From: Teseptimavirus T7
DNA length: 41,208 bases
Sequence record: PP384397
Reading direction: 5' to 3' (one strand)
Shown: one piece after another, positions 5,845 to 7,115 of the stretch
Layout: each line of letters opens with the position of its first letter
How positions within the stretch are numbered: position 1 is the stretch's first letter
Program-made: the position numbers and the translations under genes
The notes under the pieces: generated by a model
What the model was told of the DNA's origin: nothing
Databases searched by the model: none
Seen by the model: the letters and a program-made list of their open reading frames with translations, nothing else

Positions 5845-5904
5845 AAACACGTGGCAAACATTCCAAACCGGAGCCATACAGTACAAAGCACTCTTAGGCC
5901 TCTG
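5845..5904 (+). other. Synthetic 60-nt linker block of unknown origin (parses as three 20-mers)
   Basis: aaacacgtggcaaacattcc / aaaccggagccatacagtac / aaagcactcttaggcctctg; neither T7 nor recognisable vector sequence. Confidence 0.6.
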
Positions 5905-6044
5905 TACCCACGCCGAAACAAGCGCTCATGAGCCCGAAGTGGCGAGCCCGATCTTCCCCATCGGTGATGTCGGCGATATAGGCGCCAGCAACCGCACCTG
6001 TGGCGCCGGTGATGCCGGCCACGATGCGTCCGGCGTAGAGGATC
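5905..6044 (-). pseudogene. tetA: Truncated tetA fragment from pBR322-derived backbone (pET-type vector scar), antisense
   Basis: Reverse complement reads ggatcctctacgccggacgcatcgtggccggcatcaccggcgcc..., the pBR322 tet region at its BamHI site, encoding ...[42 protein letters not shown]; followed by the BglII junction gatcgagatctcgatcccgcgaaat of pET vectors. Confidence 0.75.
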
Positions 6045-6065
6045 GAGATCTCGATCCCGCGAAAT

Positions 6066-6088
6066 TAATACGACTCACTATAGGGAGA
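6066..6088 (+). promoter_or_regulatory. T7 RNAP class III consensus promoter (vector-derived phi10 copy, no lac operator)
   Basis: taatacgactcactatagggaga followed by gene-10 leader ccacaacggtttccctctagcaataattttgtttaactttaagaaggagatatacc. Confidence 0.93.
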
Positions 6089-6119
6089 CCACAACGGTTT
6101 CCCTCTAGCAATAATTTTG

Positions 6120-6144
6120 TTTAACTTTAAGAAGGAGATATACC
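6120..6144 (+). promoter_or_regulatory. Gene-10 translational leader and RBS (aaggag) with NcoI site at the start codon
   Basis: tttaactttaagaaggagatatacc directly upstream of ATG 6145; ccatgg spans the ATG. Confidence 0.85.
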
Positions 6145-6855
6145 ATGGTGAGCAAGGGCGAAGAAGATAACATGGCCATCATCAAGGAGTTCATGCGCTT
6201 CAAGGTGCACATGGAGGGCTCCGTGAACGGCCACGAGTTCGAGATCGAGGGCGAGGGCGAGGGCCGCCCCTACGAGGGCACCCAGACCGCCAAGCTGAAG
6301 GTGACCAAGGGTGGCCCCCTGCCCTTCGCCTGGGACATCCTGTCCCCTCAGTTCATGTACGGCTCCAAGGCCTACGTGAAGCACCCCGCCGACATCCCCG
6401 ACTACTTGAAGCTGTCCTTCCCCGAGGGCTTCAAGTGGGAGCGCGTGATGAACTTCGAGGACGGCGGCGTGGTGACCGTGACCCAGGACTCCTCCCTGCA
6501 GGACGGCGAGTTCATCTACAAGGTGAAGCTGCGCGGCACCAACTTCCCCTCCGACGGCCCCGTAATGCAGAAGAAGACCATGGGCTGGGAGGCCTCCTCC
6601 GAGCGGATGTACCCCGAGGACGGCGCCCTGAAGGGCGAGATCAAGCAGAGGCTGAAGCTGAAGGACGGCGGCCACTACGACGCTGAGGTCAAGACCACCT
6701 ACAAGGCCAAGAAGCCCGTGCAGCTGCCCGGCGCCTACAACGTCAACATCAAGTTGGACATCACCTCCCACAACGAGGACTACACCATCGTGGAACAGTA
6801 CGAACGCGCCGAGGGCCGCCACTCCACCGGCGGCATGGACGAGCTGTACAAGTAA
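6145..6855 (+). CDS. mCherry: mCherry red fluorescent protein (codon-optimised, GC-rich)
   Basis: ORF track 6145..6855, 236 aa [45 protein letters not shown]...[40 protein letters not shown]...[13 protein letters not shown]; M-Y-G chromophore triad; G/C at most third codon positions. Confidence 0.97.
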
Positions 6856-6906
6856 CTCGAGCGAGCTCCCGGGGGGGGTTCTCATCATCATCATCATCAT
6901 TAATAA
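6856..6906 (+). other. Untranslated linker-His6 tag (LERAPGGGS-HHHHHH) in frame with mCherry but downstream of its TAA stop
   Basis: ctcgagcgagctcccggggggggttct catcatcatcatcatcat taataa; XhoI, SacI, SmaI sites and a G8 run; reporter ORF ends at TAA 6853..6855. Confidence 0.85.
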
Positions 6907-6950
6907 AAGGGCGAATTCCAGCACACTGGCGGCCGTTACTAGTGGATCCG
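6907..6950 (+). other. Cloning-vector polylinker remnant (EcoRI, EagI, SpeI, BamHI)
   Basis: aagggcgaattccagcacactggcggccgttactagtggatccg resembles a TOPO-type cloning vector polylinker. Confidence 0.7.
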
Positions 6951-7007
6951 GCTGCTAACAAAGCCCGAAAGGAAGCTGAGTTGGCTGCTGCCACCGCTGA
7001 GCAATAA

Positions 7008-7055
7008 CTAGCATAACCCCTTGGGGCCTCTAAACGGGTCTTGAGGGGTTTTTTG
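7008..7055 (+). terminator. T7 Tphi transcription terminator (vector-derived second copy)
   Basis: ctagcataaccccttggggcctctaaacgggtcttgaggggttttttg; GC stem-loop plus T-run; same as native copy at 25434..25481. Confidence 0.9.
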
Positions 7056-7115
7056 AAAGGGGCCGTCAATATCAGAAATAAGACGACGACCCTCGAACGA
7101 TGATGCTCACTCTCG
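7056..7115 (+). other. Synthetic 60-nt linker block of unknown origin (parses as three 20-mers)
   Basis: aaaggggccgtcaatatcag / aaataagacgacgaccctcg / aacgatgatgctcactctcg; not T7, not recognised vector. Confidence 0.6.

What the first reader, a model, noticed from the sequence alone, without database searches (positions are those of the whole stretch)
5845..7115. Engineered mCherry reporter cassette inserted between gene 1 and gene 1.1
T7 intergenic sequence stops at 5844 (caatacgactcac) and resumes at 7116 (atagagggacaaactcaagg). The 1271 nt between are not phage-like: an antisense pBR322 tetA fragment with the pET-type BglII junction, a consensus T7 promoter with gene-10 leader/RBS and NcoI at the ATG, a 236-codon GC-rich ORF translating to mCherry, an out-of-frame-use linker-His6, a polylinker and a Tphi copy. 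This is a laboratory reporter phage, not a natural accessory island. The promoter lacks a lac operator, so expression should depend only on T7 RNAP.
Basis: partly seen in the sequence, partly recalled or inferred. Interest (0 to 1): 0.85.

Follow-up and report, generated by a model that had tools for sequence, protein, structure and literature searches.

The report
Published lab-made T7 mCherry reporter phage
The 1,271-base block is a man-made red-fluorescent-protein (mCherry) expression cassette put into phage T7 just after its RNA polymerase gene; it matches a published 2024 construct (PHEIGES "T7_mC-g1-o") down to the cloning primers, so it is a known laboratory artefact and not a natural genetic element.

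Summary
The window is a complete T7 genome with 160-bp terminal repeats. It equals reference V01146 plus one 1,271-nt insert at 5845..7115.

- **ORF:** 6145..6855 is 100% identical to mCherry over 236 aa.
- **Junctions:** All four junction primers published for "T7-mC-g1-o" (Levrier et al. 2024, Nat Commun 15:2223; GenBank PP384397) map exactly onto the two junctions.
- **Siblings:** The cassette is identical, base for base, to the one in sibling record PP384395.1 (T7_mCg17o).
- **Backbone:** The only two other differences from V01146 (+A at 1896; gp9 N227S) are the ones the paper lists for all of its lab phages.

1. The outer 60 nt on each side (5845..5904 and 7056..7115) are synthetic "orthogonal" assembly overhangs, not vector sequence.
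2. The template is the pIVEX2.3d-type plasmid T7p14-mCherry, not a pET or TOPO vector as such.
3. The linker-His6 is in frame but lies behind the TAA stop.
4. The insert splits and destroys T7 promoter φ1.1A and drops one T.
5. The cassette lies inside the host-RNA-polymerase early transcription unit, so "T7 RNAP only" is probably not strictly true.

Novelty: already known. Interest: very low, except as a flag that this genome is synthetic.

The parts
3172..5823 (+). T7 gene 1 (T7 RNA polymerase), the upstream neighbour. It supplies the polymerase that drives the cassette.
   Evidence: 883-aa ORF. It corresponds to V01146 3171..5822, shifted by the +A at 1896.
5832..5844 (+). Left remnant of T7 promoter phi1.1A (positions -17..-5, CAATACGACTCAC). 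The initiation half is removed.
   Evidence: Junction comparison with V01146. Phi1.1A +1 is at reference 5848. Primer gp1-oho1-as ends its T7 part at ...ctcac.
5845..5904 (.). Synthetic 60-nt 'orthogonal' assembly overhang oho1, made of three 20-mers: AAACACGTGGCAAACATTCC, AAACCGGAGCCATACAGTAC, AAAGCACTCTTAGGCCTCTG.
   Evidence: Identical to the 5' 60 nt of published primer oho1-mcherry-s and to the reverse complement of the 5' 60 nt of gp1-oho1-as. No match to tet(C) or T7.
5905..6044 (-). Fragment of the pBR322-type tetracycline efflux gene tet(C), antisense. It is vector backbone carried along by PCR, and 5905..5923 is the primer site 'pIVEX2.3d-seq1-s'.
   Evidence: 100% over 140 nt to tet(C) in many plasmids. 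The gene is on the minus strand relative to the query. Primer match.
6046..6051 (.). BglII site of the pET/pIVEX-type junction upstream of the T7 promoter.
   Evidence: Site scan and sequence.
6066..6088 (+). Consensus class III T7 promoter (TAATACGACTCACTATAGGGAGA; +1 G at 6083), with no lac operator.
   Evidence: Exact 23-mer match, one of 7 in the window. No lacO found. Identical to native phi10.
6083..6144 (+). Gene-10 5' leader with Shine-Dalgarno (AAGGAG at 6132..6137) and NcoI at the ATG. It has one A>C change that destroys the XbaI site (TCTAGC).
   Evidence: Alignment to the native phi10 leader, with a single mismatch before the ATG region. Site scan. The 5' stem-loop of the leader is predicted.
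6145..6855 (+). mCherry coding sequence (236 codons plus TAA).
   Evidence: 100% identity to PDB 6ylm_A 32-267, E=1.9e-161. Annotated 'mCherry' in sibling records.
6856..6906 (+). Untranslated vector remnant: XhoI/SacI/SmaI sites, then a linker (LERAPGGGS), His6 and two stops. It is in frame with mCherry but lies behind its stop codon.
   Evidence: Translation and site scan.
6907..6950 (.). Polylinker remnant (EcoRI 6913, SpeI 6938, BamHI 6944).
   Evidence: Site scan. These are the only EcoRI, BamHI, XhoI, SacI and SmaI sites in the whole window.
6951..7055 (+). Second copy of the T7 terminator Tphi region (hairpin 7015..7050, followed by a U-run).
   Evidence: Identical to native Tphi in window 25377..25481. 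A 15-bp hairpin is predicted, centroid -22.8 kcal/mol.
7056..7115 (.). Synthetic 60-nt 'orthogonal' assembly overhang oho2, made of three 20-mers: AAAGGGGCCGTCAATATCAG, AAATAAGACGACGACCCTCG, AACGATGATGCTCACTCTCG.
   Evidence: Identical to the 5' 60 nt of gp1-oho2-s and to the reverse complement of the 5' 60 nt of oho2-mcherry-as.
7116..7170 (+). T7 sequence resumes at position -3 of phi1.1A (ATAGAGGGACAAAC...). The downstream hairpin, the region of the R1.1 RNase III site, is intact.
   Evidence: Junction comparison. Primer gp1-oho2-s has the T7 part 'atagagggacaaactcaagg'. Hairpin predicted at 7118..7170. Its identification as R1.1 comes from my own knowledge of the T7 map, not from a tool.
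7177..7199 (+). T7 promoter phi1.1B, intact (+1 at 7194). It is the remaining T7 promoter for genes 1.1 and 1.2.
   Evidence: Core match at 7180..7194. V01146 has phi1.1B at 5923, and 5923 + 1271 = 7194.
7278..7406 (+). T7 gene 1.1, the downstream neighbour.
   Evidence: 42-aa ORF. It corresponds to V01146 6007..6135.

Best explanation
The window is the engineered phage T7_mC-g1-o (GenBank PP384397) from the PHEIGES study (Levrier et al. 2024, Noireaux lab).

How it was built. A 1,151-bp PCR product was amplified from plasmid T7p14-mCherry, a pIVEX2.3d-type vector. It carries a tet(C) stub, a BglII site, a consensus T7 promoter, the gene-10 leader and RBS, mCherry, an unused linker-His6, a polylinker and Tphi. 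Each end received a 60-nt synthetic 'orthogonal' overhang. Exonuclease-based annealing joined it to two T7 PCR fragments carrying the complementary overhangs. The assembled genome was then booted in cell-free transcription-translation.

How it works (inferred from the parts and the published phenotype). On infection, T7 RNA polymerase made from the adjacent gene 1 fires the strong class III-type promoter at 6066..6088. The gene-10 leader gives efficient translation of mCherry, and Tphi ends most transcripts. Infected cultures therefore turn red around the time of lysis.

Side effects of the design (sequence-shown, consequences inferred). Promoter phi1.1A is cut in two and loses one base. An extra Tphi now sits upstream of genes 1.1-1.3. 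The cassette also lies inside the host-RNAP early operon, so early transcripts probably also encode mCherry.
For: - **Backbone:** The window equals V01146 plus a 1,271-nt insert and has 160-bp terminal repeats.
- **Primers:** All four published gene-1 junction primers match exactly and in the expected geometry: gp1-oho1-as at 5825..5904(-), oho1-mcherry-s at 5845..5923(+), oho2-mcherry-as at 7036..7115(-), and gp1-oho2-s at 7056..7135(+).
- **Variant table:** The paper's table has '5843 mCherry insertion' in one phage only. It lists '1896 A addition' and '22629 A>G gp9 N227S' in all of its phages. Those are exactly the only backbone differences found here.
- **Siblings:** The cassette is identical over 1,271/1,271 nt to the one in PP384395.1, T7_mCg17o. 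The backbone up to the gene-17 junction is also identical to that record.
- **ORF:** mCherry identity is 100%.
- **Published design and phenotype:** The paper describes the cassette as a T7 promoter, strong RBS, mCherry and T7 terminator inserted downstream of genes 1, 10 and 17. It reports mCherry fluorescence upon lysis for all three phages.
- **Accession:** The correspondence table gives T7_mC-g1-o = PP384397.
Against: - The record PP384397 is not in the searchable phage collection, so base-for-base identity to the deposited sequence could not be shown directly.
- The paper's fragment table gives 1,266 bp for the mCherry PCR product, while the insert here is 1,271 nt. This is a trivial, unexplained discrepancy.
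- The template plasmid sequence was not found in the held supplement text.
- The mechanistic statements about host-RNAP read-through, Tphi polarity and loss of phi1.1A activity are inferred from the T7 transcription map. They were not measured.
Confidence: 0.98

Rival explanations
1. A natural accessory island or moron, acquired by a T7-like phage between gene 1 and gene 1.1.
For: The gene 1 / gene 1.1 intergenic region is a non-essential early-region location, and the insert has its own promoter and terminator.
Against: - The ORF is 100% identical to an engineered coral-derived fluorescent protein.
- The flanks are cloning-vector parts with unique polylinker sites.
- The outermost 60 nt match synthetic primer overhangs exactly.
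- No natural phage record contains the insert. Natural phages match only the phi10-leader and Tphi pieces, about 15% of the query.
Confidence: 0.001
2. An assembly or sequencing chimera, in which reads from a contaminating mCherry expression plasmid were mis-joined into a wild-type T7 assembly.
For: The cassette shares 84-nt (phi10 leader) and roughly 105-nt (Tphi) repeats with native T7. Repeats of that kind could seed mis-assemblies. pET-like vector sequences do contaminate public assemblies (H29-H32).
Against: - A chimera seeded by those repeats would join at phi10 or Tphi. The junctions here are instead inside phi1.1A.
- Both junctions are bridged by 60-nt designed adaptors fused to T7-specific primer tails, exactly as published.
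- The authors report NGS confirmation of the insertion and a fluorescence phenotype.
- Genome length is consistent, at 39,937 + 1,271 nt.
Confidence: 0.005
3. A different, independently made T7-mCherry reporter phage, from another lab or a derivative such as the later T7-mC-S*, that reuses the same cassette.
For: The same lab reuses PHEIGES parts in later work. The cassette with identical adaptors occurs at other loci. PP384397 itself could not be aligned.
Against: - The later host-range derivatives carry tail or tail-fibre mutations. The window has none: its only backbone differences are the two lab-wide variants.
- The insertion coordinate and primers are those of T7-mC-g1-o.
Confidence: 0.015

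Closest known systems
T7_mC-g1-o (GenBank PP384397), PHEIGES study, Levrier et al. 2024 Nat Commun 15:2223
   Same: Same insertion coordinate (reference 5843), junction primers, adaptors, cassette, lab-backbone variants and host-phage backbone.
   Different: No difference was detected. Direct alignment to the record was not possible because it is not in the collection.
T7_mCg17o (PP384395.1) and T7_mCg10o (PP384393.1), sibling constructs
   Same: The 1,271-nt cassette, including oho1 and oho2, is identical in g17o. It is 99.9% identical over positions 1-1211 in g10o. The lab backbone is the same.
   Different: The cassette sits after gene 17, where a 15-nt T7 deletion marks the junction, or after gene 10A. 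Those sites do not interrupt a T7 promoter, whereas the gene-1 site destroys phi1.1A.
pET / pIVEX2.3d-type T7 expression cassette (Studier-type phi10 promoter, gene-10 leader, Tphi)
   Same: Contains a tet(C) stub, BglII, consensus T7 promoter, gene-10 leader and SD, NcoI at the ATG, C-terminal linker-His6 and Tphi. One sequencing primer in the paper is named pIVEX2.3d-seq1-s and anneals at 5905..5923.
   Different: There is no lac operator. The XbaI site in the leader is mutated (TCTAGA>TCTAGC). The His tag is disabled by the mCherry stop codon. The cassette sits in a phage genome rather than a plasmid.
Other engineered T7 reporter phages (fluorescent or luciferase reporters for detecting E. 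coli)
   Same: Same principle: a reporter gene under a T7 promoter in a lytic T7 backbone, expressed only in productively infected cells. This comparison rests on my own knowledge.
   Different: This one was built and booted entirely cell-free, with orthogonal-overhang assembly. It was made as a method demonstration rather than as a diagnostic.

Membership tests
PHEIGES construct T7_mC-g1-o (PP384397) | mCherry cassette inserted at T7 reference coordinate 5843, downstream of gene 1 | tested here: met
   Window 5844 corresponds to reference 5843, and the insert follows directly. The paper's table has the row '5843 mCherry insertion'.
PHEIGES construct T7_mC-g1-o (PP384397) | Junctions defined by primers gp1-oho1-as, oho1-mcherry-s, oho2-mcherry-as and gp1-oho2-s | tested here: met
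   All four primers (79-80 nt) match exactly at 5825..5904, 5845..5923, 7036..7115 and 7056..7135.
PHEIGES construct T7_mC-g1-o (PP384397) | Lab T7 backbone variants (+A at 1896; A22629G gp9 N227S) and no others | tested here: met
   These are the only backbone differences from V01146. The paper lists them as present in all of its phages. They are shared with sibling PP384395.1.
PHEIGES construct T7_mC-g1-o (PP384397) | Base-for-base identity to the deposited record | not testable with these tools
   PP384397 is absent from the 'phages' collection. No record holds the gene 1 / gene 1.1 junction.
mCherry (monomeric DsRed-derived red fluorescent protein) | Near-identity to the mCherry sequence over its full length, including the M-Y-G chromophore triplet | tested here: met
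   236/236 identical to PDB 6ylm_A residues 32-267. The motif ...[11 protein letters not shown]... is present in the translation.
mCherry (monomeric DsRed-derived red fluorescent protein) | Red fluorescence when expressed | not testable with these tools
   The authors report it for all three T7-mCherry phages. It was not measured here.
pET/pIVEX-type T7 expression cassette | Consensus phi10 promoter, gene-10 leader with SD, and Tphi terminator flanking the cloned ORF | tested here: met
   Exact 23-nt consensus at 6066..6088. The leader has one mismatch to the native one. Tphi is identical to the native copy and its hairpin is predicted.
pET/pIVEX-type T7 expression cassette | lac operator downstream of the promoter (T7lac variants only) | tested here: not met
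No lacO core or half-site anywhere in the window.
Natural phage accessory island / moron | Homologues in natural phage or bacterial genomes, and no cloning scars | tested here: not met
   Full-length matches come only from engineered T7 records. The insert holds the window's only EcoRI, BamHI, XhoI, SacI and SmaI sites, synthetic adaptors and a His6 tag.

The most novel reading that the evidence does not exclude
The most novel reading left open is that the gene-1 insertion is not phenotypically neutral. It destroys promoter phi1.1A. It puts a strong class III promoter immediately after gene 1. It also places a Tphi terminator inside the early operon, ahead of genes 1.1-1.3. Together these could measurably change early and middle transcription or transcription-coupled genome entry. 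That might explain why the gene-1 locus gave the lowest cell-free rebooting titre: 5e6 PFU/ml, against 6e7 for gene 10 and 2e8 for gene 17. This would be a small design lesson for T7 engineering, not a new biological system.
Probability: 0.3. Interest if true: 0.12.

Novelty: already known. Interest (0 to 1): 0.04.

Why it matters
The main value is for curation. The genome is a synthetic construct and should be excluded, or labelled as such, in any scan for natural novelty. Its "foreign" block has no evolutionary meaning.

It also shows what a modern scar-containing assembly looks like at sequence level. The 60-nt orthogonal adaptors match nothing in vector databases and could be mistaken for novel sequence.

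A minor practical point for phage engineers: this particular insertion site inactivates phi1.1A and adds a terminator upstream of genes 1.1-1.3.

Tried and rejected
- **Finding the exact record.** I looked for PP384392, PP384391 and PP384397 in the collections and none is present. PP384394 turned out to be T7_mini. A search with the junction-spanning query 5300..7700 found no record covering at least 80% of it.
- **Template plasmid sequence.** I searched the paper's supplements for diagnostic strings from T7p14-mCherry (the TCTAGC leader and the linker-His6) and found none in the held text. The pIVEX2.3d origin therefore rests on the primer name and its site only.
- **Orthogonal 20-mers.** I tried to verify the six 20-mers in Subramanian et al. 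2018, but no supplement is held. That attribution rests on the PHEIGES citation and on the 20-nt unit length.
- **Promoter and terminator scan.** The simple scan found nothing on the + strand and missed Tphi itself. Its negative result is therefore not informative about terminators between gene 1 and mCherry.
- **Natural island and assembly chimera.** I considered both and rejected them (see the rival explanations).
- **BLAST over-extension.** BLAST carried the right-hand T7 alignment back to 7109. This reflects a chance resemblance between the end of oho2 (GCTCACTCTCG) and the promoter core (GACTCACTATAG), not retained promoter sequence. The primer sequence settles this.

Full report
**1. Checking the observation**

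- BLAST and exact comparison with the T7 reference V01146 (39,937 bp) show that window 1..5844 equals reference 1..5843 apart from one extra A at window 1896.
- Window 7116..41208 equals reference 5845..39937 apart from one A>G at window 23900.
- The block 5845..7115 (1,271 nt) has no counterpart at that place in T7.
- The window ends in the 160-bp T7 terminal repeats, so it is a complete linear genome.
- Its length equals the reference length plus 1,271. The extra A at 1896 is offset by the loss of reference T5844 at the insertion point.
- GC content rises from about 0.48 in flanking T7 to 0.60-0.665 inside the block.

**2. What the block contains**

- The 236-codon ORF 6145..6855 is identical at every residue to mCherry (PDB 6ylm_A residues 32-267, E=1.9e-161).
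- Positions 5905..6044 are 100% identical to tet(C), the pBR322 tetracycline gene, and run antisense to it.
- Then follow a BglII site (6046), the exact 23-nt consensus T7 promoter at 6066..6088, and the gene-10 leader with its Shine-Dalgarno sequence. NcoI overlaps the ATG.
- The leader is identical to the native phi10 leader of the same genome except for one A>C change, which removes the XbaI site.
- After the mCherry TAA come XhoI, SacI and SmaI sites and a sequence reading LERAPGGGSHHHHHH**. It is in the mCherry frame but behind the stop, so it is never translated.
- A polylinker remnant (EcoRI, SpeI, BamHI) follows. Then comes a copy of Tphi (6951..7055) identical to the native terminator at 25377..25481, and it folds into the expected 15-bp hairpin.
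- No lac operator exists anywhere in the window.
- EcoRI, BamHI, XhoI, SacI and SmaI occur nowhere else in the 41 kb.

**3. Provenance**

- The whole 1,271 nt is 100% identical to a block in PP384395.1, "Mutant Teseptimavirus T7 clone recombinant T7_mCg17o". There it sits after gene 17 and is annotated "T7 promoter added for mCherry cassette" and "mCherry".
- A second sibling, PP384393.1 (T7_mCg10o), has the cassette after gene 10A.
- These records belong to Levrier et al. 2024 (PHEIGES, Nat Commun 15:2223, PMC10933291). [quoted passage not shown] It first used natural overlaps and then a "leak-free" design with orthogonal oligonucleotide overhangs.
- The supplementary primer table gives the four oligonucleotides for the gene-1 version. 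All four match the window exactly and in the expected overlapping geometry:
  - gp1-oho1-as at 5825..5904 (minus strand)
  - oho1-mcherry-s at 5845..5923
  - oho2-mcherry-as at 7036..7115 (minus strand)
  - gp1-oho2-s at 7056..7135
Each is three concatenated 20-mers.
- The paper attributes these overhangs to the orthogonal primer set of Subramanian et al. 2018, a set of 166 20-nt primers. I could not check the list itself.
- The PCR template is named T7p14-mCherry. The template-annealing part of the left primer equals a sequencing primer called pIVEX2.3d-seq1-s, so the backbone is of pIVEX2.3d type.
- The paper's variant table has a row "5843 mCherry insertion" positive in a single phage.
- It lists "1896 A addition" and "22629 A>G (gp9) N227S" as present in every phage of the lab. 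Those are exactly the only two backbone differences I found, and sibling PP384395.1 shares them.
- The correspondence table gives T7_mC-g1-o = PP384397. That record is absent from the searchable collection. This explains why no hit spans the junction.

**4. How it works**

Shown by sequence:
- A plain, operator-less consensus class III T7 promoter, the gene-10 translation leader, the mCherry ORF and Tphi lie immediately downstream of gene 1.

Reported by the authors:
- All three T7-mCherry phages give red fluorescence upon lysis of E. coli B cultures.

Inferred:
- T7 RNA polymerase made from gene 1 transcribes the cassette, the leader gives strong translation, and Tphi stops most transcripts.

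- **Loss of phi1.1A.**
  - The insertion lies inside promoter phi1.1A, not in neutral spacer.
  - The left side keeps positions -17..-5 and the right side keeps -3 onward. The T at -4 is omitted by primer design.
  - By the established two-domain anatomy of T7 promoters (binding region upstream, initiation region -4..+6), neither half should be active.
  - Phi1.1B at 7177..7199 is intact.
- **Position in the early operon.**
  - The cassette lies between the E. coli promoters A1-A3 (498-750) and the early terminator TE (reference 7588).
  - Host-RNAP early transcripts running through gene 1 should therefore continue into mCherry, which has its own RBS.
This is inference.
- **Extra terminator.**
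  - The extra Tphi now precedes genes 1.1-1.3 and may reduce their expression.
  - The hairpin region just downstream of the insert (7118..7170, the R1.1 RNase III site by my knowledge of the T7 map) is untouched.
  - The gene-1 locus gave the lowest rebooting titre: 5e6 PFU/ml, against 6e7 and 2e8. However, the standard deviations are as large as the means.

**5. Rival explanations**

- **Natural island.** This is excluded by the engineered protein, the cloning sites, the His tag and the synthetic adaptors. Natural phages match only the phi10 leader and Tphi pieces.
- **Assembly chimera.** A chimera with a contaminating plasmid would be expected to join at the shared phi10 or Tphi repeats. 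The junctions here are designed adaptors fused to T7-specific primer tails.
- **A different derivative reusing the cassette.** This is unlikely because the window carries no tail or tail-fibre mutations, only the lab-wide variants.

**6. Comparison with the known, and verdict**

This is a published, deposited laboratory construct, and functionally an ordinary T7-promoter reporter cassette.

- Novelty is "already known". Interest is very low, apart from flagging the genome as synthetic.
- The most novel reading left open is a modest fitness or polarity effect of the insertion site.

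Noticed in passing
window 1896: One extra A relative to V01146, in the gene 0.6/0.7 region. The PHEIGES variant table lists it as '1896 A addition' present in all of the lab's phages, and sibling records do not annotate gene 0.6B. It looks like a lab-stock or reference-sequence difference, not part of the engineering.
   Followed up: partly
window 23900 (V01146 22629): An A>G change giving N227S in the scaffolding protein gp9. It is shared with sibling PP384395.1 and listed as present in all phages of the study, so it is a lab-backbone variant.
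   Followed up: partly
window 5844/7116 junction (V01146 T5844): The T at position -4 of promoter phi1.1A is missing. The two gene-1 primers end at ...ctcac and start at atagag..., so the base was dropped by primer design. The paper does not mention it in the text I read.
   Followed up: yes
window 7102..7119: The end of the synthetic overhang oho2 (…GATGCTCACTCTCG) followed by ATAGAGGG resembles a T7 promoter core by chance (9 of 17 upstream positions). This made BLAST extend the T7 alignment 7 nt into the adaptor. It is unlikely to be functional because the -11/-12 contacts are absent, but this was not tested.
   Followed up: partly
window 6060..6143 vs 24152..24235, and 6951..7055 vs 25377..25481: The cassette creates two direct repeats with native T7 (the phi10 promoter/leader at 84 nt and Tphi at about 105 nt), roughly 18 kb apart. 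Recombination between them would delete essential genes, so such products should be inviable. Stability was not examined.
   Followed up: no
PLSDB hits H29-H32 (CP046410.1, NZ_CP080650.1, NZ_CP071514.1, NZ_CP130428.1): Small 'plasmids' of about 5.6-6.1 kb, attributed to Aeromonas, Ruficoccus, Staphylococcus and Micromonospora, match the tet(C)-stub, T7-promoter and Tphi backbone at about 96%. One is annotated as carrying 'fibroblast growth factor'. These look like pET-type expression vectors contaminating public assemblies.
   Followed up: no
window 6145..6855: The mCherry nucleotide sequence is only 98.7-99.0% identical to mCherry genes on deposited E. coli plasmids, although the protein is 100% identical to a PDB mCherry chain. 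For example, it reads GGCGAAGAAGAT near the 5' end. These are presumably synonymous tweaks in the lab's version.
   Followed up: no
paper fragment table vs window 5845..7115: The paper lists the mCherry PCR fragment as 1,266 bp, whereas the primer-to-primer distance in the window is 1,271 nt. This is a small unexplained bookkeeping discrepancy.
   Followed up: no
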